The notes beneath the pieces are model-generated. The model did not search any database and was not told the DNA's origin. It saw only the letters and a program-made list of their open reading frames with translations. A stretch of 64,000 nucleotides of DNA from Candidatus Moraniibacteriota bacterium. Its GTDB lineage: Bacteria; Patescibacteriota; Minisyncoccia; Moranbacterales; UBA1568. The stretch lies in NCBI GenBank assembly GCA_016699975.1, contig CP064994.1, positions 321,222 through 385,221 on the forward strand, in the 5' to 3' direction. Every line of letters starts with the position of its first letter. Within the stretch, counting starts at the first letter, position 1. This document shows, piece by piece, positions 3,496 through 61,512 of this stretch. The position numbers and the translations under genes were made by a program.

Positions 3496-4053
3496 GAGAG
3501 AGTGAGGAGAGGGGAGTTTTTCTTCTTTTGTTCAAGGAATCCTTTTCAACAACTCTCCTGAACCGATGTGTTCTTTTTGACCGACAAACATACTCTGGAG
3601 AGTGAGAAGAGAAATTTCTTCCTCAATTCTCTTCACTCGAAAAGTGATCACAATATTTTCTCGGTTATTTTTTGAAATGAGATCGACTCTTTTCTCGGAA
3701 GGTTTGAATGAGAAAATTTTCTTGAGCAGTTTTCTCTTTTATTGAGAGCGTCATTTTTTTCTGAGAGTGAAAAGAGTTGTCTCGGGTGGAGCGCAGCAAG
3801 AGTTTTTCGGATTTTTTGAGTTTCTTTTCTCATATTCCTATGACGACGATGCTTTTTTCTGTGTCGAAAGTTCTCTTGTGAGCCTCATCTTTTTGAAGTG
3901 AGCGCATGTTTAACAAACGTCGGAGAGAAAACTCGAAGAGCGGAAGCGCCCTTTTGAGGAGTATCATTTCGTGTTTTCTCACTCCCCGGTCTTTTTATAT
4001 GATGTTTGTCACATTTGTAACAGTGAAAGTATTTTTCCTGTAGCCCGTATTTT

Positions 4054-5469
4054 ATGTCAAAATTCTATATTACAACCACTCTTCCTTACGTGAACGGAAA
4101 GCCTCACATTGGTTTTGCGCTCGAGGCGGTTCAGGCAGATGTTATCGCTCGTTTCGAGCGACTCCGCGGAAAAGATGTGATTTTCAATATCGGAACCGAC
4201 GAGCATGGTGCGAAGATTTATGAAAAGGCGAAAGAGGAGGGAATAACACCTCAGGAGTATTGTGACCGCATGTCGAAGCCATTTCGCGCACTTCGTGAGA
4301 CACTCGACATTCACTTTACCAACTTTATTCGAACGACGGATGAGTTTCATGTGCGCGCAGCGCAGGAATTTTGGAAGCGCTGCGCGGACCGGGGAGACAT
4401 TTACAAGAAAAATTATCGAATGAAGTATTGTGTTGGGTGCGAGCTTGAGAAAACGGATTCCGATTTGGTTGATGGGCGATGTCCGGAACACCCGAACCGC
4501 GATTTGGAGACCGTAGAGGAAGAAAATTATTTTTTCAGGTTTTCCCACTATCGAGCAGCACTCCTTCGCCTCTATGAAAACGATCCGAAGTTTGTGGTTC
4601 CCGAAAAGCGCCTGAATGAAATCGTGGCGTTCGTTGATCGCGGTCTCCACGATTTTAGTGTGTCGAGGCTTGCACAAAAAATGCCGTGGGGTATTCCCGT
4701 TCCCGGAGATGAAGCGCATGTCATGTATGTGTGGTTCGATGCGCTCGTCAATTATATTTCCACACTCGGGTGGCCGGAAGATATGGATTCCTTCGAAAAG
4801 TTTTGGCCCGGAATTCAAATTGCCGGCAAGGATAATTTGCGGCAGCAGTCGGCGATGTGGCAGGCAATGCTTCTCTCTGCGGGAATCGAGCCATCACGAA
4901 AGATTCTCATACACGGGCATGTGATGAGTGCGGGACAGAAAATGTCGAAGAGTCTTGGAAATGTCGTATCGCCCGACGAACTGATAGAAACCTTTGGCAT
5001 AGATGGGACGCGATACCTGCTTCTTTCTGCGGCTCCTTTCGGCGAAGACATGGATATAACGAAAGAGCGCATGATCGAAAAATATAATGCGGATCTCGCA
5101 AACGGACTCGGGAACCTTGTGTCGCGTGTTATGAAACTGGCGGAAGGCATGGAGGAGAAATATGTTCCGCATGTTCGAGAATTTCCGAATGAATTTGTCT
5201 CTTCATTTGAGTCGTATCGCCTCACGGAAGCGCTCGACTTTGTCTGGAGTCTCGTTCGTCGCGCGAATAAAAATATTGAAGAAACGAAACCCTGGGAGCT
5301 CAAGAAGACGGACTATGAGTCTTTCGAGCGCGTACTTCAGGAGCTTCTTTTTGATATTGAAACCATTGCTTTCCTCCTCGGCCCGTTTCTTCCGCACACG
5401 TCGGAGAAAATCTTTTCTTTTTTCTCAAGCGAAGGCGGGCGAAGCGTTCTTTTCGAACGAATACGATAA
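4054..5469 (+). CDS. metG: methionine--tRNA ligase
   Basis: Class I aaRS with HIGH-like ...PYVNGKPHIGF... and KMSKS; CxxC...C zinc knuckle ...CVGCELEKTD...GRCPEHP... Confidence 0.9.
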   Translation: MSKFYITTTLPYVNGKPHIGFALEAVQADVIARFERLRGKDVIFNIGTDEHGAKIYEKAKEEGITPQEYCDRMSKPFRALRETLDIHFTNFIRTTDEFHVRAAQEFWKRCADRGDIYKKNYRMKYCVGCELEKTDSDLVDGRCPEHPNRDLETVEEENYFFRFSHYRAALLRLYENDPKFVVPEKRLNEIVAFVDRGLHDFSVSRLAQKMPWGIPVPGDEAHVMYVWFDALVNYISTLGWPEDMDSFEKFWPGIQIAGKDNLRQQSAMWQAMLLSAGIEPSRKILIHGHVMSAGQKMSKSLGNVVSPDELIETFGIDGTRYLLLSAAPFGEDMDITKERMIEKYNADLANGLGNLVSRVMKLAEGMEEKYVPHVREFPNEFVSSFESYRLTEALDFVWSLVRRANKNIEETKPWELKKTDYESFERVLQELLFDIETIAFLLGPFLPHTSEKIFSFFSSEGGRSVLFERIR

Positions 5470-5484
5470 TTTTTCATAGGAAGT

Positions 5485-5802
5485 ATGAAAAAAGAAAAGT
5501 TGGTTCGGGACAATATCCCGGATAGAATGAAAAAAAGAGGGAAAGTCCCCGGTTGTTCGCAGTGCCTCTCCCCAAGAATATGAGAATTTTCTCCGGGAAA
5601 ACTTTTTGAAGAGGTCAATGAATTTCTTGAGTCTGGAGCTCAAGAAGAGCTTGCCGATATCATGGAAGTAGTCTTCGCTCTTGGCGAGATGAAAGGCGTG
5701 GATGAGAGAGCGCTTCGAAATATTCGAGAAGAGAACCGACGAGAACGCGGCGGTTTCTCTAAAAGAATTCTTCTCGAGAAATTCGAGGAAGAGCATTCTT
5801 GA
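5485..5802 (+). CDS. small MazG-like nucleoside triphosphate pyrophosphohydrolase, about 105 aa, interrupted by two frame changes
   Basis: Three frame segments read MKKEKLVRDNIPDRMKKRGKVP / VVRSASPQEYENFLRE / KLFEEVNEFLESGAQEELADIMEVVFALGEMKGVD...RERGGFSKRILLEKFEEEHS. Together they resemble the short archaeal/CPR-type MazG/HisE-like NTP pyrophosphatase. Frame switches fall at a C run (~5547-5550) and an A run (~5598-5601). The 60-aa cutoff hides it from the ORF track. Confidence 0.5.
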
Positions 5803-6914
5803 ATACTTTCGGAATGCGTTTTGTTCCCGATTTTCCTTTTTGATTTGAGATTTCAACTCTTCGGTTCCCGGATATTGCTGAGGGAAGAAGCGGCGGAAAG
5901 TCGGTTTCTTCTGTCCTCACATTTTATCCTGACTCCAAAAATTTCATAACCGTTTCGCACCTGTGTGCGGGATTCGTTCAGTTACTCTGTTTCAGAGTAT
6001 TTCAAAAATCGCTGTCATTCGAGGTGTAAATTTTCATTGGGGTGAGTCAGCGCGAGAAAATTTTTCGCGAGGCACTTCCTGTTCATTCTTCACTGTATAA
6101 AAGAACATGAAAGTATTTGTGTATTCTGGAATAAAAAAGAAAAGTGTATACTGAAATTATCAGAGAAAAGAATATTGTTCTATTGTTGAAAGAAAACGAA
6201 CTCTGGGAGATGCCTCTCTTTATGAGAGCTAGAGCAGTTCGCAACAGCTGTGTTAATGTGTTAAGTTGTGCCACAAGAAAAATTCTCATTTTGTAAAAGT
6301 GGAGCCGAAGATGAGAGAAGTTTTACCGGGAGATACCGTTTGGGGTATGGCGTAATACATTTGCTATTTTATGCCACAAAAAGAAATTATTGCTTATCGA
6401 CATGTTTCTCAGAAGAATGCTCGGTTGGCAAATACTGAAGAAGCTGATGCCGAAGAAGAATTTCTTCGAGGCGTAGAGCTTACTGGTGAAGAGACATCCT
6501 TGCTTGCCTCGGATTTTCTAATGTAGCGCGCAAAAACAAAAAAAATTGTATACCGAAGGCAAGGGTCATCTCGATGTTTTGTGGTCTTCTCTCGTCTTGA
6601 CGAAGAAAGATTTCTTCGACCCGAAGGCGTATTTGGTCCACTGACATTTTCTGAGAGTGATTTGGAAGAACTTGAAAAAAAACAGTTGATTGATGATGCG
6701 AAAGAAGTGGTCCTCTCTCGGGAATCAATGGGATTTTCTCCGGAGGGCGAAATTGACGCTCGGAGCTTACAGGATGCTCTCTTTCGGTTATATGCCACCA
6801 ACCCTCGAAAAAAATCGTGACGCTCGATGAGGAGCTCCCTCCCTATTTCTTTCTCATGGCACTCGACTGGTTTGTTGGGAAAGCTCATGCAATAAAATCT
6901 GGAGGCAGAGAATT

Positions 6915-9900
6915 ATGAGAGAAAAGTTTGATTTAAAAAAAACAATGGAGCTTGCTCCTCCCGCATGGCAGGAGGATCTTCGACGCAAGATACGTCCGGA
7001 AGCATTGCCCGTCGGAGAAAGGCGCGAAGAAATTTCTGACTTGATCAAATTGTCTCTTGAGGAACAGAAAGTGTGTCTCATTCAGGGAGAAACAGGGAGT
7101 GGAAAATCAATTCTTCTTCCTGGGATGGTGTACGAGCAATTGGAGCGGTCTCCTTTACCTAGCCGTGTCCTTGTTGTGCAGCCGCGCCGTGACGCCGCTC
7201 TTAACGTATCGCGCGCCGTGAGCGCCGTTCAGAAGAAGTCCTGGGGAAGAAATGGCGCAGTGGGATGTGCGACTTCTGAAACGAAAGAGGCGAACTCGTC
7301 GTCGGAAATTACAGTAGTGACGACGGGCATAGCGATTCGGTACCTCTCGGAAATGATAAAAGACATCGAACAGGGGAAGCGTCCCAGATTTGGCGGCATC
7401 ATGGTTGATGAGTTCCATGAAAATTCCGTCGAGTATCACATGATTTTGGGGATGCTGAAGATACTCCATGATCGAGGGGAAGCTCCTTTGACGCTTCTTA
7501 CCAGCGCAACCTTAGAGAAAGAGAAAATTCAACACTATTTCTCCATAGAGGATCGTCATTACATGAAAGTGGAAGGGCGGCGTTATGAGGTCGAGAATTC
7601 ACTTTTCGATCCAAGAAATACCGAATATACAGAGAACTACTATATACAGGCTGCGGCCTCAGAAGTAAAAGATATTCTTCGCTCCACAACTGAGGGAGAT
7701 ATTCTAGTGTTTATGCCTGGTCTTCGGGAGATCAACTCCGTGATTCATCTTTTGGGTCATCGCGGCGATGGCGATGTTCTTCCGCTTCATGGTTCTCTTT
7801 CGCTCGAAGATCGCGACGCTGTGCTGTCGGGAGGACGTCGTCGGCGGGTTATTGTCTCGACGAATATTGCTGAGACATCACTCACGCTTCCGGGCATAAC
7901 GGCTGTTGTGGACTCTTGTCGAGAACGATCGGTGAAATACAATCCGGCGACCGGAATTTACGAACGTGTGACACAGCTTATTTCAAAGGATTCCGCCGAG
8001 CAACGTTCTGGTCGTGCGGGAAGAGTTCGTTCTGGTATGTGTCGTCGAGTCGTTTTTCCGGAGGAGTGGGAGAAGATGCCCAAACACAGGACTTCTGAAA
8101 TACATCGCGCTAATTTAGCCAATGTCGTTCTGCAACTTCGTGGACTGGGTATTGATCAGAACACGTTCCCGTTTTTGGATGCCCCCGCACCAGAATCACT
8201 GCGTTTTGCCGAAGAGCAACTGAAACTTCTCGGTGCCATAGATGAACGTGGTGTTGTGACGCCGGAAGGAGAGAGGATGTTGGATATGCCTTTTTTTGAA
8301 CCGCCTCTGGCGCGAAGTATAGTGGAAGCCGAGAAACAAAACTGTGTTGATCAAGCGCTTGTCTTGGCTATTTTGGAACGGGAGTCATCACTTTTTTATA
8401 CTCCCTCCCAGAGAGAAATCCTTGAGAGGCAAAAAAGCAGTCTTGAAGAAAAAGGGTACGAAGTGAGAGGCCCTCTCGATATACGATCCCAGGGCCAACA
8501 ACTCGATCCCGAAGTCGCCTCAAAACTTTTTCAAGAACAGCATTCTGTGGCCCTTGGTAATTTGAGAGAACAGTATAGAGAGAAGCATGCTGTTTTCGGA
8601 CATGGCTCTGACTGGATTCGTAACTTGAGTGTTTTCTCGCATGCCATAGAAAACGGGCTTTTTGATGCGCTTCGCTCCAACCGAACACCAGAAGGAAAGA
8701 GAGCAGAGCGCGAACTTTCGAAGTGGTGTGAAGAATACCGTATCAATAAAAAAGCGCTTTTGCATGCTGCTCAACATGTGAGCGATTATTCGCGTGCTCT
8801 CGGTATCGATTTTGATATGAATACACTGGAAAGGAAAATAGCTGAGTTCAATCATTCAGATATGGAGAAAGTGATTCTTGCTGGGTATCCGCATATGATA
8901 CTTGTAAATGTCACAGACAGTGGGCGCATTTCTCGCTATCGATTCTTGCAGGGAAGTGCGGAAGAAATATTTATTTCTTCCGCCTCGGCCGCATTTGGTA
9001 AATCCTCGACCCTGTGTGTGGCGACACGCGTTAATGAGGGAAAGGGAAGTCCAGGCAAAGGAAAAGTAACGCGCAATTATGCATCCGGAGTCCACCCCAT
9101 CTCTCTTCAGCGACTCTGCGAAGTTTCTCCGCATCTTGTCACACAAAAGGGGACAGAGACGTTCTTTGATTGGGAAAGGGGAACAGTTTTTTCATCAGTA
9201 CAAGTCGCTTCCCTCCACAATTCAAGTCGGTCATTGGGGGAGTATAAGAGAGAGGCAACCGCCGAAGAAGCGCAGGAATTTTTTGCGCAGGAATTCTTGC
9301 GAGGCTATGGTCGTTTGTTTTCCGATATGCCGATCTTTCAAGAAAATAGAGAAATCATACAACGCCTGGAGAAACAACAAATTCGTTTTGGGAAGAACGT
9401 CCTTCTTCCCGACCTTCAGTCATGGTATAAAGACAGGCTGAAAAACGCTCCTCAGCCAGTTTCTCTCGACTCTGTTCGAGCACATAAAGAGGACTTTGCT
9501 CTGAAAGAAGAAGATTACTTTTCTGTGGAAAAAGCTGCAGAGCTCGCTCCGCTCTATCCTGAACATATTGAACTTCCTCAGCTTGGTCAGGTAGCGGTTG
9601 TTTATACGTATGACCATACCTCAGAAACAGCGCATGTCGCACATGTGACTCTCGAATTGCCCAATGAACCTCTTTCTCTCAGTGCACTTAGTCACCACTC
9701 GTTCTCTCGTCTTACAAACGCTAGTTTTCCGCGATTGGGAACCGAGAATGATCCCGTACATTTTTCTCTTGTTGCACGTACTCCCGAAGGTTTGCTTGCC
9801 CGCTCTCAATCGGTGGAAGAATTGCAGCGACTCGTCAGAGAGCGCATCATACACAAAGCATGGAGCGCTTTCGAGCGATCTAACGTTTCTGAGAATGAGG

Positions 9901-11282
9901 GCGAGGTGAACGTTGATCAGCCATTTCCTTTGGATCAATATGAGCCGAAAGAGTATATCCAGAATGAACAATTGAATCCCCTCTTTGCGTATCCGGTTCT
10001 CACCCCTCTTTTGGTAAAAGAGGATCTCAGCAAAAACCGATATATCTGGCGTCTCACCTGGGAGCGGGATCGCATTGAGGCGGATCGTCTCAATGAAGAA
10101 TCGTCCCACTTTTTGAAAAAGGAGAAGATTGCTCTTGATGAGTGGCGATCTGATCAGAAACGAAACATTGAAGAGCGAGAAGAGTTGGTTAAACGACTAA
10201 GAAGTCGCATTCAGCAAACCCACTTGAGCGTTTTTGCTTACTCTCGGGGATTTGATTCAAACGATTTAGTGCTATTGCGGCAAGACCTCGAAAAATACGA
10301 CCGCCTCAAGGAGGGACACATTCATTCTGTGGATTTGAATTGGAATCTCTTTGACGATCGACTCCTGCGATTTGAGAAAACTTTGGACGGTATAGAATCG
10401 AGAGACCGAGAGAGGCAGCATGAACTTGAAAAATATGCGAATGTCATGCAGGCAGCGCGAGGAGAAATTGATGATTTCTTCGATCGGGTGCGCGCTCTTT
10501 CGGAAGACGACCTCAATACTATGTCCTTGGGCCAGTGGGAGGTTGATATGCTCTCTCAAGAGTTTTCAATTATACAGCGCATTCTTGAAGAAGATCCCGA
10601 GAAGTTTGAGAGGCTCAAAGAATTGGTGCCGAATACATTACAAAAAATGCGTACATACGCGACAATCTTGGATGTATCGGGGTTTCATAGAGAGTCAGAA
10701 ACTGCGCTTTCGCATGCCTTTCGTAAATCCGGTATCTCCAAAGAGGAGACGCCAGAGAATATTCAGCCCCTTCGTTCTCCGATGTTGGTACAAGAGAGAT
10801 ATCGAGCTTCGGAACAATCAAAGCAACAAGAAAAAGTGGCTGAACAGATACTGCCACCAGCATTGCTTGAACGCATCAATGCCGAATCCGACTTGGAAGT
10901 GAGGGGTATCATCATTATGGAAGAGAAAGAACTGTTGCATGCCAAGCTCAAAGCCATGGAGGAAGAGCACCTAGGACTTGAGGCGCTTCTCGCTCAATCA
11001 AACAAGCTTACCGAAGAGCATAATTTATTAAAAAAGATGGAACAGTCGCTCAATCGAGAGATTGGAGAGTTGACTGAGCGGAAAGCGGATAAACAAAGAG
11101 AAGGAACACTTCGTTTGAAAAGAAGAGACATTGCTGAGCAAATAAAAACAATCGAAGCGAAACTCAAAGGAACGCGTGCTCGTAAGAACAATCTCCTAGA
11201 TTTTGATCGGAAAAAAGATGAGATCAAGAAACAGATCGACGAACTTGACCGACTTGAAGATGAGACGCTTTCTCTCTTGTGA
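6915..11282 (+). CDS. ATP-dependent DEAH-box RNA helicase, HrpA/HrpB-like, 1455 aa with a long coiled-coil C-terminal tail
   Basis: Walker A GETGSGKS, DEFH (DEAH variant), SAT, TNIAETSLT, QRSGRAGR and an HA2-like region occupy the first ~550 aa. The C-terminal ~300 aa is heptad-rich (...EEKELLHAKLKAMEEEHLGLEALLAQSNKLTEEHNLLKKMEQSLNREIGEL...). It is an uninterrupted 4.4-kb ORF. Confidence 0.8.
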   Translation: MREKFDLKKTMELAPPAWQEDLRRKIRPEALPVGERREEISDLIKLSLEEQKVCLIQGETGSGKSILLPGMVYEQLERSPLPSRVLVVQPRRDAALNVSRAVSAVQKKSWGRNGAVGCATSETKEANSSSEITVVTTGIAIRYLSEMIKDIEQGKRPRFGGIMVDEFHENSVEYHMILGMLKILHDRGEAPLTLLTSATLEKEKIQHYFSIEDRHYMKVEGRRYEVENSLFDPRNTEYTENYYIQAAASEVKDILRSTTEGDILVFMPGLREINSVIHLLGHRGDGDVLPLHGSLSLEDRDAVLSGGRRRRVIVSTNIAETSLTLPGITAVVDSCRERSVKYNPATGIYERVTQLISKDSAEQRSGRAGRVRSGMCRRVVFPEEWEKMPKHRTSEIHRANLANVVLQLRGLGIDQNTFPFLDAPAPESLRFAEEQLKLLGAIDERGVVTPEGERMLDMPFFEPPLARSIVEAEKQNCVDQALVLAILERESSLFYTPSQREILERQKSSLEEKGYEVRGPLDIRSQGQQLDPEVASKLFQEQHSVALGNLREQYREKHAVFGHGSDWIRNLSVFSHAIENGLFDALRSNRTPEGKRAERELSKWCEEYRINKKALLHAAQHVSDYSRALGIDFDMNTLERKIAEFNHSDMEKVILAGYPHMILVNVTDSGRISRYRFLQGSAEEIFISSASAAFGKSSTLCVATRVNEGKGSPGKGKVTRNYASGVHPISLQRLCEVSPHLVTQKGTETFFDWERGTVFSSVQVASLHNSSRSLGEYKREATAEEAQEFFAQEFLRGYGRLFSDMPIFQENREIIQRLEKQQIRFGKNVLLPDLQSWYKDRLKNAPQPVSLDSVRAHKEDFALKEEDYFSVEKAAELAPLYPEHIELPQLGQVAVVYTYDHTSETAHVAHVTLELPNEPLSLSALSHHSFSRLTNASFPRLGTENDPVHFSLVARTPEGLLARSQSVEELQRLVRERIIHKAWSAFERSNVSENEGEVNVDQPFPLDQYEPKEYIQNEQLNPLFAYPVLTPLLVKEDLSKNRYIWRLTWERDRIEADRLNEESSHFLKKEKIALDEWRSDQKRNIEEREELVKRLRSRIQQTHLSVFAYSRGFDSNDLVLLRQDLEKYDRLKEGHIHSVDLNWNLFDDRLLRFEKTLDGIESRDRERQHELEKYANVMQAARGEIDDFFDRVRALSEDDLNTMSLGQWEVDMLSQEFSIIQRILEEDPEKFERLKELVPNTLQKMRTYATILDVSGFHRESETALSHAFRKSGISKEETPENIQPLRSPMLVQERYRASEQSKQQEKVAEQILPPALLERINAESDLEVRGIIIMEEKELLHAKLKAMEEEHLGLEALLAQSNKLTEEHNLLKKMEQSLNREIGELTERKADKQREGTLRLKRRDIAEQIKTIEAKLKGTRARKNNLLDFDRKKDEIKKQIDELDRLEDETLSLL

Positions 11283-11502
11283 CTTCCTGCTTTGTTTGAA
11301 AGAAAGAAATGTATTTTTGTTGAGTCGAAAATATTTCAACAAAGGGATATCTTGCCTCACTTTACAGTGAGTCTTTTGTGTGATTCCTGTTTGTATCGGA
11401 TTGGCTTTGATGAGCTTCTCATTTTAACGGATGATTGAAGTGAGGGGAGGAGTTGCGGGATGTACCATTGTTTCGAAACCGTTTGCGAGATAAGCTCTTC
11501 AT

Positions 11503-12102
11503 ATGTCGACCACCCTTCTTCTTAAGGAACTTGCAAAAAATTGGCGAGAAATCGGAGCAGTTGCCCCGAGTTCGGTGTTTCTTACGGAGAAAATGCTTTC
11601 TGTGATCGACTTTGCATCCGCCTGTACCGTGGTGGAGCTTGGTGCCGGAACGGGAGTTATGACGCGAGAAATGTTGAAGCGCCTTTCGTCGAAGGGAACG
11701 CTCACGGTCTTCGAACTCAATAAAAATTTTTGTAACGCACTGAGAAAAGAAAAGGATGCTCGTCTTTCAGTTCACTGTCTCTCGGCGGAAAAATTACATG
11801 CGATGCTTCCTGAAAGCTCGGTCGATGTTGTCCTTTCTGGCTTGCCGCTTCTGGTTCTCCCCAAAGAAAGAGTCCGGTCCATTCTGGAAGCCATTCAAAA
11901 AACTCTTTCACCGAAAGGGGTGTTTGTGCAATTTCAATACTCACTCGCTTCTCGAAAACTTTTGTTGCGCCACTTTCAAACGGTTGACGTATACTTCGTC
12001 TCTCGCAATATTCCGCCCGCCTTCGTCTACGTGTGCTCGTCGGGCACTCCCTCGAGGAAACGACGATCCTTTCACAACATATTTGAGCGACAGAATACAT
12101 AG
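11503..12102 (+). CDS. class I SAM-dependent methyltransferase (COG3963/PmtA-like small MTase)
   Basis: Motif I VVELGAGTGVMT and the downstream SGLP motif; 199 aa. Confidence 0.65.
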   Translation: MSTTLLLKELAKNWREIGAVAPSSVFLTEKMLSVIDFASACTVVELGAGTGVMTREMLKRLSSKGTLTVFELNKNFCNALRKEKDARLSVHCLSAEKLHAMLPESSVDVVLSGLPLLVLPKERVRSILEAIQKTLSPKGVFVQFQYSLASRKLLLRHFQTVDVYFVSRNIPPAFVYVCSSGTPSRKRRSFHNIFERQNT

Positions 12103-12110
12103 TCCACAGT

Positions 12111-12947
12111 ATGGCACTTATCGATACGCATGCGCATATTCATGATGAGCAATTTAAAGGCGAAGTGAACGCCGTATTGTGCCGCGCGCGTACAGCGGGA
12201 GTGTCTCGTATTATTACGGTCGGGACGAATGTAGAGGAGAGTCGAGTGGCGGTTTCATTCGCGTCGGTTTACGAACATGTTTACGCGACGGTCGCCGTTC
12301 ATCCGGAAAAATACTCTGAACTTCCAGATGAACTAACGAGACGAAGATGGATAGAATCGATCTCTTCGCTTGCGAAAGGCGAGAAAACCGTGGGCATCGG
12401 AGAGTGCGGACTTGACTACCATGTGTTGCAAAACATTGTCGTCCCCGAAGAGCAAAAGCAGTGTCAGCGACAAGGATTTTCCGATCATATCGAACTTGCG
12501 CGACAGGTCCACAAGCCACTCATCGTCCATGCGCGCGATTCCTACAACGATGTGCTTGCCATACTGTCCGAAAATACCGTTGATATTCCTCTGATTGTTC
12601 TTCATTGTTACCAGGGTGATACCGACGTTACGGATCGTTTTCTTACTCTTTCGGACCGGATCTTTTTTTCATTCGCTGGGAATAGCACCTATCCGCCAAA
12701 AAAAATCGATCGAAATACGAAAGATGATGTGCGAAATGTCATTCGTATGATTCCGCTTGATCGCCTCCTTTCCGAAACGGATTGTCCATATCTTGCGCCG
12801 CAAAAATTTCGTGGCCAGCGAAACGAACCAGCGTATGTCGAGGAAGTGGTTCTTGCGATTGCCGAGTTTCGGGGCGTGTCGCCTGAAAGCGTCGAGCGAG
12901 CGATTGAGTATACCGCTCGCCGTATTTTTCCTCGGATGTTTTTTTGA
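12111..12947 (+). CDS. tatD: TatD family metal-dependent DNase/hydrolase
   Basis: N-terminal LIDTHAHI, ...GIGECGLDYH..., ...PLIVHARDS..., ...LLSETDCPYLAP... are TatD signatures. Confidence 0.85.
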   Translation: MALIDTHAHIHDEQFKGEVNAVLCRARTAGVSRIITVGTNVEESRVAVSFASVYEHVYATVAVHPEKYSELPDELTRRRWIESISSLAKGEKTVGIGECGLDYHVLQNIVVPEEQKQCQRQGFSDHIELARQVHKPLIVHARDSYNDVLAILSENTVDIPLIVLHCYQGDTDVTDRFLTLSDRIFFSFAGNSTYPPKKIDRNTKDDVRNVIRMIPLDRLLSETDCPYLAPQKFRGQRNEPAYVEEVVLAIAEFRGVSPESVERAIEYTARRIFPRMFF

Positions 12948-61238: not shown

Positions 61239-61295
61239 AAGCTCTTTTTACAATTGCCTAAACCCATGGGTTTCTGTGGGCATGGCACTATAAAA

Positions 61296-61343
61296 ACGAC
61301 AACGACAAAGATGGTCTTCTGACCAGCACTTCGTCGTTGTCGT
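61296..61343. repeat. 15-bp near-perfect inverted repeat (ACGACAACGACAAAG ... CTTCGTCGTTGTCGT) around an 18-nt spacer that is itself palindromic (TGGTCTTCTGACCA)
   Basis: Read directly from the sequence in the 275-bp gap between the Xis-like gene and the downstream GT2 gene. Confidence 0.6.
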
Positions 61344-61512
61344 CTGCATTCGAAAGGATGCAGGGTAGTTCCGAAAGGAGCTATCGCTGGCTCGGGAGAC
61401 CTTTTTTGATTTCGCTACAATTTCCATAAAGTCGCCGCGCCAGCATTGGTAGCGGCTTTTTCTAAAATGGAGGGTTTTGGGGAGGCGCTTTTATCCGTAA
61501 CCAAAACTCTTT

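What the first reader, a model, noticed from the sequence alone, without database searches (positions are those of the whole stretch)
6915..11282. 1455-aa HrpA-like DEAH helicase with a ~300-aa coiled-coil tail in an otherwise streamlined region
The N-terminal ~550 aa carry all DEAH/RHA helicase motifs, with DEFH in place of DEAH. The following ~600 aa have no recognisable OB or DUF3418 signature that I can see. The last ~300 aa are strongly heptad, Lys/Glu-rich coiled coil ending ...IDELDRLEDETLSLL. A 4.4-kb gene is a large investment for a small genome, and it is preceded by ~1 kb of low-coding sequence. Its role (ribosome biogenesis, mRNA processing, defence?) is open.
Basis: partly seen in the sequence, partly recalled or inferred. 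Interest (0 to 1): 0.55.

Follow-up and report, generated by a model that had tools for sequence, protein, structure and literature searches.

The report
Patescibacterial HrpA helicase, novel tail
This 1455-residue gene is a divergent candidate-phyla-radiation version of HrpA, the helicase that rescues collided ribosomes, with an unrelated long helical arm in place of HrpA's ribosome-sensing end domain; in relatives it is paired with an undescribed small upstream gene, which is broken in this genome.

Summary
The ORF (6915-11282, +, 1455 aa) is real and intact, with all DEAH/RHA motifs. DEFH is a clade trait, not an oddity.

Profile comparison and an AlphaFold model identify HB1, OB/beta-meander, HB2 and both alpha+beta domains. 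The HrpA-specific region q783-1052 is significant on its own (99.4%, E 1.5e-21). The best structural match is full-length E. coli HrpA on the disome.

Only the last ~400 aa (q1053-1455) are unmatched. They sit where HrpA's Hook domain lies and are all-helical. They end in a confident two-helix module, apparently hairpin-like, whose turn is conserved and basic. This tail has only 8 relatives among 1.84 billion representative proteins, and all are helicases of the same family.

The helicase belongs to a Patescibacteria clade of long HrpA-like proteins whose C-terminal modules vary.

Unexpectedly, the "low-coding" upstream kilobase holds two disrupted genes. One is the broken orthologue of a ~190-aa unannotated gene. 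That gene precedes this helicase in 10 of 11 relative Patescibacteria loci and in none of 78 canonical hrpA loci.

Most likely function: mRNA-pulling rescue of stalled or collided ribosomes, inferred from homology. Verdict: a new variant of a known kind, of moderate interest.

The parts
6915..11282 (+). Intact ORF of 1455 aa: a Patescibacteria-type HrpA-like DEAH/RHA helicase
   Evidence: It is 100% identical to P0001, annotated in a Candidatus Moraniibacteriota MAG on a 1,048,819-bp contig.
6901..6905 (+). GGAGG Shine-Dalgarno sequence, 9 nt before ATG 6915
   Evidence: Read directly from the sequence. It supports the 1455-aa start over the deposited M11 start.
7011..8108 (+). RecA1 (q33-224) and RecA2 (q225-398), carrying motifs I-VI; motif II is DEFH at residues 165-168
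   Evidence: Boundaries were transferred from the phmmer alignment to E. coli HrpA.
8109..8894 (+). Winged helix (q399-462) and HB1/ratchet bundle (q464-660), with a ~50-aa insertion that includes a beta-hairpin (q~500-555)
   Evidence: Pfam HA2_N; hhalign; AF2 model with pLDDT ~90.
8898..9254 (+). OB fold plus beta-meander (q662-780)
   Evidence: Beta-rich in the AF2 model. On its own, hhalign against canonical HrpA gives 96.1%, E 2.8e-9.
9261..9554 (+). HB2 helical bundle (q783-880)
   Evidence: hhalign 97.5%, E 7e-12; helical in the model.
9564..9806 (+). Reduced alpha+beta-1 domain (q884-964). The whole clade lacks the ~70-80-aa 'VPGLREE...LPK..R' segment of canonical HrpA.
   Evidence: hhalign 59.5%, E 9e-5, first 44 columns only. 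The gap corresponds to canonical positions 899-978.
9813..10064 (+). alpha+beta-2 domain (q967-1050), including the conserved G-x-P-x-x-AYP motif (AYP at q1025-1027)
   Evidence: hhalign 87.7%, E 3.4e-6. The AYP motif is conserved across the clade.
10071..10676 (+). Helical arm (q1053-1254): long helices 1053-1108, 1115-1132, 1143-1194, 1207-1226 and 1228-1254. It occupies the position of the Hook domain but is not detectably related to it.
   Evidence: AF2 pLDDT ~65-80. hhalign for the tail gives 0%. Heptad-type periodicity z 8.6 and 6.5 in two of the helices.
10704..10733 (+). Short linear motif ALSHAFRKSG (q1264-1273), at the start of the low-confidence linker (q1255-1292, nt 10677-10790)
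   Evidence: The motif [LFM][AGRS]xA[FL] occurs ~190-225 aa before the C-terminus in 20 of 44 clade members, against 8% of shuffled tails.
10893..11276 (+). Two terminal helices (q1327-1385 and q1390-1454) separated by a four-residue turn, read as an antiparallel hairpin. The turn region LTERKADKQREGTLRLKRR (q1386-1404, nt 11070-11126) is conserved and basic.
   Evidence: AF2 pLDDT ~90 in two models. The nearest folds are antiparallel helical hairpins such as PspA, AhlC and the p85 iSH2 domain, none significant; I could not inspect coordinates. The turn is conserved in all 8 relatives.
6371..6918 (+). Disrupted orthologue of the conserved ~190-aa upstream partner gene. It has a TAG at 6524-6526 (Trp in the closest relative) and a frame change at an A7 run at ~6806-6812. 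Its TGA (6916-6918) overlaps the helicase ATG (an ATGA junction).
   Evidence: tblastn with the L003 partner, E 8e-21. The partner HMM hits three pieces at 5.6e-36, 2.8e-14 and 1.6e-11. Sequence; alignments A6 and A7.
5485..5805 (+). Small NTP pyrophosphohydrolase (MazG-like) gene with an in-frame TGA at 5581-5583
   Evidence: tblastn against plasmids: 17 records, 88-93% coverage across the stop, 40-47% identity, E to 7e-7, annotated 'nucleoside triphosphate pyrophosphohydrolase'. Stop codon located.
11356..11371 (+). Terminator-like stem-loop followed by a T-rich tract, 74 nt after the helicase stop codon
   Evidence: Consensus scan only.

Best explanation
The gene encodes the Patescibacteria (candidate phyla radiation) form of HrpA.

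Shown here. Residues ~27-1050 are collinear with canonical HrpA: an active-looking DEAH/RHA core, WH, HB1, OB, beta-meander, HB2, a trimmed alpha+beta-1 and alpha+beta-2. The last ~400 aa take the place of the Hook domain. They form a lineage-specific all-helical arm, then a short conserved motif, a disordered linker, and two ~60-residue terminal helices with a conserved basic turn.

Inferred from E. coli HrpA. The core sits at the mRNA entry site of a stalled ribosome and threads the downstream mRNA. It pulls 3'->5' using ATP, which splits the ribosome or disengages it from the mRNA. HB2 and the alpha+beta domains ride on the 30S head. I propose that the helical arm does the Hook's job with different hardware: it reaches the trailing (collided) ribosome and touches rRNA with its basic tip.

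In relatives, a ~190-aa protein of unknown fold is encoded immediately upstream, usually abutting or overlapping the helicase start codon, and probably works with the helicase. In this genome that partner is inactivated while the helicase stays intact, so the partner appears to be accessory.
For: Family identity. The CPR-clade profile against the canonical HrpA profile gives 100% probability, E 5e-139, over 919 columns. The same profile against PDB matches full-length E. coli HrpA (9ggr/9gft) over residues 74-878, E 1.5e-129. The HrpA-specific CTR (q783-1052) alone gives 99.4%, E 1.5e-21, and is collinear. The AF2 model of q480-1455 (pLDDT 83.9) has the expected order of domain types. Its top Foldseek hit is HrpA on the disome, 9gft_B, E 2e-14 over 905 columns. 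All catalytic motifs are intact.

Function of the family. E. coli HrpA splits collided ribosomes. [quoted passage not shown] A newer preprint links HrpA to mRNA disengagement and tmRNA/Hsp15 (10.64898/2026.04.23.720132).

Tail. It is confidently helical, with the terminal module at pLDDT ~90. The turn motif LT-x-[RK]-x-x-D-[KR]-x-[KR] and a following basic patch are conserved in all relatives. The tail occurs only on HrpA-like helicases.

Selection. The 4.4-kb ORF is intact while two small genes just upstream carry three lesions in under 0.9 kb.

Partner. It lies upstream of the helicase in 10 of 11 independent relative Patescibacteria loci, is present but broken in the window, and is absent from all 78 canonical hrpA loci.
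Against: No experiment exists for any member of this clade.

The Hook, which confers collision specificity in E. coli, is exactly the part that is not conserved. The tail shows no sequence or fold similarity to it. The N-terminal 3-helix bundle is missing and alpha+beta-1 is trimmed.

The protein scores far below the NCBIfam HrpA cut-offs (252.7 against 722.75).

Tails differ even within the clade, which could mean different targets rather than one conserved task.

The partner's role is unknown. It is decayed here and absent in L091.

The antiparallel packing of the terminal helices and the inter-domain geometry come from AF2 and from non-significant fold neighbours. The AF2 alignment is only about four sequences deep in the tail.
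Confidence: 0.55

Rival explanations
1. It is a general RNA-remodelling helicase, for example in ribosome biogenesis, RNA processing or RNA decay. It descends from HrpA but no longer senses collisions. The coiled-coil-like tail serves dimerisation or binding to another RNP or partner.
For: The collision-sensing Hook is not conserved. Eukaryotic relatives with the same core (Prp43/DHX15, DHX37) work in biogenesis and splicing through different C-terminal or adaptor modules (PMC11419001 discussion). PNPase lies next to the gene in two relatives. rsmI, metG and TatD are nearby in the window.
Against: HB2 and the alpha+beta domains, which hold E. coli HrpA on the 30S head, are retained. The adjacency to RNA or translation genes is no more than expected in a reduced genome. 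Nothing supports dimerisation.
Confidence: 0.25
2. The small protein plus the large helicase form a two-gene anti-phage or anti-mobile-element module. The variable C-terminus would be a fast-evolving sensor.
For: The architecture, a small unknown protein next to a large helicase with a variable C-terminus, recurs in defence systems (my own knowledge). The pair keeps together while its neighbours change. There are weak PADLOC hits: mad8 at 28 bits for the helicase, mad2 for the neighbouring methyltransferase and QatD for TatD.
Against: The PADLOC hits are generic domains: the P-loop only (66 of 314 profile positions), a SAM methyltransferase that scores better as OlsG/PmtA-like, and a housekeeping TatD above its own NCBIfam cut-off. 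The partner hits nothing in PADLOC or PHROGs. The helicase is collinear with HrpA through the ribosome-binding CTR. Flanking genes are housekeeping genes such as aaRS, MreB, FtsH and PNPase, not defence islands.
Confidence: 0.07
3. The tail is an evolutionarily drifting, low-complexity extension with no specific function, and the gene as a whole is decaying along with its upstream neighbours.
For: Two adjacent genes are pseudogenised. The tail is restricted to very few relatives. Tail length across the clade ranges from 117 to 872 aa.
Against: The 4.4-kb reading frame is intact. The turn motif and the overall tail layout are conserved at 25-36% identity across relatives. AF2 confidence is high for the terminal module. 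A linker motif sits at a fixed distance from the C-terminus across the clade.
Confidence: 0.05

Closest known systems
E. coli HrpA (PDB 9gft/9ggr on the disome; 6zww, 7akp core; TIGR01967)
   Same: It shares the DEAH/RHA core with all motifs, then WH, HB1, OB, beta-meander, HB2, alpha+beta-1 and alpha+beta-2 in the same order. It also shares the AYP motif. A helical region follows alpha+beta-2 in both, and overall length is similar (1455 against 1300 aa).
   Different: There is no N-terminal 3-helix bundle. Motif II is DEFH. HB1 carries a ~50-aa insertion and alpha+beta-1 a ~70-80-aa deletion. A 403-aa unrelated helical arm that ends in two very long helices replaces the Hook (223 aa). The protein scores below the NCBIfam cut-offs. 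A dedicated upstream partner gene exists in relatives and in none of 78 canonical loci.
Other Patescibacteria HrpA-like proteins (P0005-P0044; Magasanikbacteria and the Parcubacteria group)
   Same: They share the body up to the AYP motif, the DExH variant with a hydrophobic third residue, the trimmed alpha+beta-1, the upstream partner gene, and the tail layout of arm, GxLAxAF motif, linker and terminal helical module.
   Different: Most end in a different conserved helical module ('W..Y...IP') and several carry an inserted beta-rich domain. The query's terminal two-helix module is shared by only 8 cluster representatives.
Eukaryotic DEAH helicases Prp43/DHX15, DHX37/Dhr1 and DHX29
   Same: RecA1/2, WH, ratchet and OB core (E ~1e-56 by sequence; Foldseek E 1e-9 to DHX37).
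   Different: They have no HB2 or alpha+beta CTR, and other adaptors (G-patch proteins, the SSU processome) recruit them.
HrpB
   Same: The helicase core matches at a similar score (237.9 bits against 252.7 for HrpA).
   Different: The HrpB-specific C-terminal domain was not detected. The query's region after the OB fold aligns with HrpA's HB2 and alpha+beta domains instead.
Functional analogues: MutS2/RqcU, SmrB and the eukaryotic Slh1/RQT complex
   Same: If the inference holds, they share the task of recognising collided ribosomes and clearing the stalled one.
   Different: Their folds and mechanisms are unrelated (SMR domain or ABC ATPase; Ski2-like helicase recruited by ubiquitin).

Membership tests
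HrpA (bacterial DEAH/RHA helicase) | DEAH/RHA motifs I-VI in two RecA-like domains | tested here: met
   All motifs were located. Pfam DEAD and Helicase_C match. phmmer to E. coli HrpA gives E 4e-60.
HrpA (bacterial DEAH/RHA helicase) | Winged helix, ratchet/HB1 and OB fold after the core | tested here: met
   HA2_N Pfam hit. The profile aligns through E. coli residue 878. OB+meander alone gives 96.1%, E 2.8e-9. Matching secondary structure in the AF2 model.
HrpA (bacterial DEAH/RHA helicase) | HrpA-specific connector: beta-meander plus HB2 | tested here: met
   HB2 alone gives 97.5%, E 7e-12 against canonical positions 759-855.
HrpA (bacterial DEAH/RHA helicase) | alpha+beta-1 (inactive REase-like) domain of the DUF3418-like CTR | tested here: inconclusive
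   Only the first 44 columns align (59.5%, E 9e-5). About 70-80 aa, including the conserved VPGLREE...LPK..R segment, are absent across the clade.
HrpA (bacterial DEAH/RHA helicase) | alpha+beta-2 domain | tested here: met
   87.7%, E 3.4e-6. The AYP motif is conserved. The whole CTR gives 99.4%, E 1.5e-21.
HrpA (bacterial DEAH/RHA helicase) | [quoted passage not shown] | tested here: not met
   Tail against the canonical profile: 0%. Terminal module against the canonical C-terminus: 0.16%. In the tail-only fold search, 9gft is not in the top 50 and the best E-value is 0.59. Only the position and the helical character are shared.
HrpA (bacterial DEAH/RHA helicase) | N-terminal 3-helix bundle (E. 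coli residues 1-78) | tested here: not met
   The alignment to E. coli HrpA starts at q27 against residue 73. Only ~26 residues precede it.
HrpA (bacterial DEAH/RHA helicase) | Score above the curated equivalog cut-off (TIGR01967 / PRK11131) | tested here: not met
   252.7 bits against a cut-off of 722.75, and 228.5 against 1400. Only residues 28-485 match.
HrpA (bacterial DEAH/RHA helicase) | ATP-dependent splitting or mRNA disengagement of collided ribosomes | not testable with these tools
   Known for E. coli only (PMC11419001; 10.64898/2026.04.23.720132).
HrpB | HrpB-type C-terminal domain after the OB fold | tested here: not met
   No such Pfam hit. The NCBIfam HrpB match covers residues 44-545 only, at 237.9 bits against a 546 cut-off. 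The region after the OB fold aligns to HrpA's CTR.
Known anti-phage defence helicases (PADLOC-DB) | Full-length match of the helicase or its partner to a defence-system model | tested here: not met
   The only helicase hit is mad8 over 66 of 314 profile positions (28 bits). The partner has no hits and none in PHROGs.
Two-stranded coiled coil | Sustained heptad (3.5-residue) hydrophobic periodicity and long uninterrupted helices | tested here: inconclusive
   AF2 predicts helices of 52-65 residues. Periodicity is strong for 1143-1194 and 1207-1254 (z 8.6, 6.5) but weak for the two terminal helices (z 1.6, 2.3; a/d hydrophobic fraction 0.44-0.59). Fold neighbours are antiparallel helical hairpins, none significant.

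The most novel reading that the evidence does not exclude
Patescibacteria may carry a distinct two-component ribosome- or RNA-surveillance system. It would combine an HrpA-derived mRNA-pulling motor, whose collision-sensing Hook has been replaced by interchangeable lineage-specific 'reach' modules, with a dedicated ~190-aa protein of unknown fold, usually encoded abutting or overlapping the helicase start. That protein would supply target recognition or regulation. Ribosome-collision sensing would then have been re-invented on the unusual ribosomes of these ultra-small bacteria.
Probability: 0.3. Interest if true: 0.65.

Novelty: new variant of a known kind. Interest (0 to 1): 0.48.

Why it matters
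HrpA was only recently shown to be a collision-sensing ribosome rescue factor, and the work so far concerns proteobacteria. Ultra-small CPR genomes of ~1 Mb keep a 4.4-kb HrpA-type gene, which argues that this activity matters even in minimal cells.

The retained parts are the mRNA-pulling core and the 30S-head-riding domains. The replaced part is the Hook that reads the second ribosome. That split gives a natural experiment on which parts of HrpA are mechanistically fixed and which adapt to the ribosome.

The consistently linked, unannotated partner gene is a concrete and testable lead to an unknown cofactor.

For annotation, these proteins are currently labelled only 'DEAD/DEAH box helicase' or 'hypothetical'. 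The upstream 'non-coding' kilobase should be read as pseudogenes.

Tried and rejected
- Single-sequence Pfam, NCBIfam and PDB searches see only residues ~27-500.
- Alignment A4 (tail fragment against full-length homologues) was unusable because MAFFT smeared the fragment over the helicase core. I replaced it with tail fragments cut at the AYP anchor (A5).
- The tail-only fold search against PDB found nothing significant.
- hhalign of the query-type terminal module against the canonical Hook C-terminus, and against the CPR-majority terminal module, was negative in every pairing.
- The idea that the partner is a split-off piece of HrpA (N-domain, deleted alpha+beta-1 segment or Hook) was rejected: hhalign probabilities were at most 0.2%.
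- The partner has no hit in Pfam, PDB, PADLOC or PHROGs.
- Word-indexed homology searches with partner profiles returned only 7 proteins, twice. The family's true size is therefore unknown.
I reused the canonical ones as a negative control.
- No contig is on record for P0001 itself.
- Rfam found nothing in 5300-7100, even at E <= 1.
- The sigma-70 promoter scan found no + strand candidate upstream of the gene, and the number of sites was no higher than in shuffled sequence.
- The defence hypothesis was considered and judged unlikely.

Full report
**Observation**

The ORF at 6915..11282 (+) exists exactly as stated. It has 1455 codons, an ATG start, and ends ...IDELDRLEDETLSLL. A GGAGG sequence at 6901-6905 lies 9 nt before this ATG. 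The deposited annotation (P0001, 1445 aa, 100% identical) starts at M11 instead.

All DEAH/RHA motifs are present: GETGSGKS 58, QPRR 89, TTGIAIR 136, DEFH 165, SAT 197, ILVFMPG 263, TNIAETS 316 and QRSGRAGR 363.

The source is a Candidatus Moraniibacteriota MAG on a single 1.05-Mb contig, within the Patescibacteria/Parcubacteria group.

**What single-sequence scans see**

Pfam finds DEAD, Helicase_C and the HA2 winged helix, and nothing after about residue 460. NCBIfam HrpA and HrpB models match residues 28-490 only, far below their cut-offs (252.7 against 722.75 bits). phmmer against PDB aligns residues 27-486 to E. coli HrpA.

**The middle region is standard HrpA**

The homology search revealed a clade of about 40 long (1100-1900 aa) helicases from Moranbacteria, Magasanikbacteria and other Parcubacteria. 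They lack Pfam OB_NTP_bind and DUF3418 annotations, and canonical HrpA proteins follow them in the hit list. BLASTP already aligned the query to some canonical HrpA proteins continuously to q900-1117.

Profile evidence:
- A profile of the clade (A1) against a profile of canonical HrpA (A2) gives 100% probability, E 5e-139, over 919 aligned columns.
- The same profile matches full-length E. coli HrpA (9ggr/9gft) over residues 74-878 at E 1.5e-129.
- Column-level matches continue to about q1060 and include the conserved G-x-P-x-x-AYP motif. They are blank beyond that point.

Cut into domains, the homology holds on its own:

| Region (query residues) | hhalign probability | E-value |
|---|---|---|
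| OB + beta-meander (662-780) | 96.1% | 2.8e-9 |
| HB2 (783-880) | 97.5% | 7e-12 |
| alpha+beta-1 (884-964), first 44 columns only | 59.5% | 9e-5 |
| alpha+beta-2 (967-1050) | 87.7% | 3.4e-6 |
| HrpA-specific CTR as a whole (783-1052), collinear | 99.4% | 1.5e-21 |

The AlphaFold2 model of q480-1455 (64-sequence alignment, mean pLDDT 83.9) shows the expected succession: helical, beta, helical, alpha+beta, alpha+beta, then all-helical. Its best PDB match is HrpA on the E. coli disome (9gft_B, E 2e-14, 905 columns). The TM-score is low, as I would expect from flexible multi-domain geometry.

Differences from canonical HrpA in this body:
- No N-terminal 3-helix bundle (compared with the domain list).
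- A ~50-aa insertion in HB1.
- A clade-wide ~70-80-aa deletion in alpha+beta-1 that removes the canonical VPGLREE...LPK..R segment.
- A hydrophobic residue (L/V/I/A/F/M) in place of the invariant Ala of DEAH. DEFH is therefore a clade trait.

**The tail**

Residues 1053-1455 (403 aa) have no detectable relation to the canonical Hook region: 0% by hhalign, and 0.16% for the terminal module.

AF2 predicts an all-helical region:
- Long helices at 1053-1108, 1143-1194 and 1207-1254, with pLDDT ~65-80.
- A disordered linker at 1255-1292, with pLDDT below 50.
- A confident terminal module with pLDDT ~90, whose two last helices (1327-1385 and 1390-1454) are separated by a four-residue turn.

A tail-only model has no significant PDB neighbour (best E 0.59). 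The nearest are generic antiparallel helical hairpins (AhlC, PspA 1-144, p85 iSH2, the Rad50 hook and the dynein stalk), and E. coli HrpA is not among the top 50. I read the terminal helices as an antiparallel hairpin on that basis, but I could not inspect the coordinates.

Hydrophobic 3.5-residue periodicity is strong in two arm helices (z 8.6 and 6.5). It is modest in the terminal helices (z 1.6 and 2.3) and across the last 300 aa (z 3.1). 'Helical arm ending in two long paired helices' is therefore a better description than 'strongly heptad coiled coil'.

**Distribution of the tail**

phmmer of the tail against 1.84 billion representative proteins finds 9 proteins at E <= 0.001, including the query itself. 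All are full-length copies or fragments of the same helicase family.

Among them the turn is conserved as LT-x-[RK]-x-x-D-[KR]-x-[KR], followed by a basic LR..RR patch. In the query this is LTERKADKQREGTLRLKRR, q1386-1404.

Across the wider clade, the region after the AYP motif ranges from 117 to 872 aa, mostly 400-630. Most members end in a different conserved helical module, and some carry an inserted beta-rich domain. The query-type, majority-type and canonical C-terminal modules are mutually unrelated by profile comparison.

The tails still share a layout. A short motif, G-x-L-A-x-A-F, lies ~190-225 aa before the C-terminus in 20 of 44 members, against 8% of shuffled tails and 5 of 31 canonical proteins at scattered positions. 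In the query it is ALSHAFRKSG at 1264-1273.

**What is known about the family**

In E. coli, HrpA binds collided disomes. The core sits on the 30S beak at the mRNA entry site and holds the downstream mRNA. HB2 and the two alpha+beta domains contact h39 and uS10 of the stalled ribosome. The Hook (1078-1300) reaches the collided ribosome and touches its h39. Constructs 1-783 and 1-1179 cannot split ribosomes (PMC11419001).

A 2026 preprint links HrpA action to mRNA disengagement followed by tmRNA and Hsp15. The authors discuss HrpA mainly for proteobacteria. No paper in the searchable library mentions HrpA together with Patescibacteria.

**Mechanism proposed**

- Shown here: the query keeps an apparently active motor and the domains that ride on the 30S head. 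It has replaced the element that reads the second ribosome.
- Inferred: the protein pulls mRNA out of a stalled ribosome as HrpA does, and the helical arm with its basic tip substitutes for the Hook as the reach-and-touch element.
- Confidence: about 0.95 that the protein is an HrpA derivative, and about 0.55 for the rescue mechanism.

**Surroundings**

The upstream 'low-coding' stretch is 1445 nt (5470-6914) and is not empty.

1. *A broken NTP pyrophosphohydrolase gene (5485-5805).* It reads as a ~105-aa protein with an in-frame TGA at 5581-5583. tblastn against plasmids matches genes annotated 'nucleoside triphosphate pyrophosphohydrolase' across the stop, covering 88-93% of the query at E down to 7e-7.

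2. *A broken copy of a conserved partner gene (6371-6918).* tblastn with the L003 upstream protein gives E 8e-21, and the repaired 182-aa copy aligns end to end with the family.
   - It carries a TAG at 6524-6526, where the closest relative has Trp.
   - The frame changes at an A7 run at ~6806-6812. The run is an A_AAA_AAA slippery-type sequence followed by TCG TGA, and a -1 shift restores the protein.
   - Its TGA overlaps the helicase ATG (an ATGA junction).

3. *A 565-nt spacer (5806-6370).* It remains unexplained: no ORF and no Rfam match.

The rest of the window is densely coded, and the 4.4-kb helicase frame is intact. The lesions therefore look like local gene decay rather than assembly-wide error, although only read mapping can settle that.

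**The partner gene**

In relatives, a 177-199-aa gene with no Pfam hit lies immediately upstream of the helicase on the same strand. Most junctions run from a 16-nt overlap to a 6-nt gap, and one locus (L005) has a 225-nt gap. Other neighbours are not conserved.

These proteins are homologous to each other, with pairwise E-values from 1e-24 to 3e-4. An HMM built from them detects the upstream gene in loci that were not used to build it:
- L039, E 1.5e-39.
- L090, E 3.9e-40.
- L092, weakly, E 8e-6.

Starting from the partner side, two further contigs show the helicase N-terminus 5-6 nt downstream.

The tally is 10 of 11 independent relative Patescibacteria loci with DNA. The exception, L091, has PNPase upstream instead. 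The window itself carries a broken copy. A further locus without DNA (P0016) has a 199-aa no-Pfam gene in the expected position. None of 78 canonical hrpA loci from Verrucomicrobiota, Proteobacteria, Actinomycetota, Planctomycetota and others has the partner.

The partner has no relative in Pfam, PDB, PADLOC or PHROGs. It is not a split-off piece of HrpA. Its function is unknown. Its decay here and its absence in L091 suggest that it is accessory.

**Rivals**

- *A general RNA helicase without collision sensing (0.25).* The Hook loss favours it. The retained 30S-binding CTR argues against it.
- *A two-gene defence module (0.07).* The architecture resembles one. The PADLOC matches are generic-domain hits, though. 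The neighbouring methyltransferase is OlsG/PmtA-like, and TatD passes its own housekeeping model. The flanks are housekeeping genes.
- *A drifting, functionless tail (0.05).* The conserved turn and layout and the intact frame contradict it.

**Verdict**

The helicase is a new variant of a known kind: a Patescibacteria HrpA with a substituted Hook and, in relatives, a dedicated partner gene. The interest is moderate. The mechanistic core is ordinary HrpA. The replaced collision-sensing module and the tightly linked unknown partner are concrete, testable leads.

Noticed in passing
window 61255-61385 (+): LOOT RNA (Rfam RF03000) matched over the full model at 74.3 bits, against a gathering score of 46.4. 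It is a structured sRNA of unknown function.
   Followed up: no
window 5485-5805 (+): A small MazG-like NTP pyrophosphohydrolase gene directly after metG is interrupted by an in-frame TGA at 5581-5583. Homology spans the stop. Pfam, NCBIfam and PHROGs did not recognise it.
   Followed up: yes
window ~6800-6820 (+): The frame change in the partner gene falls on an A7 run that forms an A_AAA_AAA slippery-type sequence. It is followed by TCG TGA in the zero frame, and a -1 shift restores the full protein. It could be a homopolymer indel, a sequencing error, or slippage-prone expression. Relatives have a single frame.
   Followed up: partly
window 5806-6370: A 565-nt stretch between the two disrupted genes has no convincing ORF and no Rfam match, and its G+C content is low. 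It is unusual for an otherwise dense genome.
   Followed up: partly
window 3496-4053: A 558-nt gap without an ORF of 80 aa or more lies between rsmI and metG. Rfam found nothing at the gathering threshold.
   Followed up: no
L091 696-2951; the P0016 locus (no DNA held): PNPase lies directly next to the HrpA-like gene in two relatives, upstream in L091 and downstream in the P0016 locus. rpsO or rpsT are nearby.
   Followed up: no
Tails of P0005, P0006, P0008-P0013, P0015, P0022, P0024 and P0042: Many clade members carry a conserved beta-rich insert in the tail (for example '...IGxSGRAL...DGxYxxxRxAxxVxxVE...') that the query lacks. I did not examine its fold or role.
   Followed up: no
window 6915 versus 6945: The deposited annotation (P0001) starts at M11. 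The GGAGG at 6901-6905 and the ATGA overlap with the partner gene's stop favour ATG 6915.
   Followed up: partly
window 11503-12947 (+): The downstream neighbours are an OlsG/PmtA-like lipid N-methyltransferase homologue (below its cut-off) and TatD (above its cut-off). Their PADLOC hits (mad2, QatD) are generic-domain matches.
   Followed up: yes
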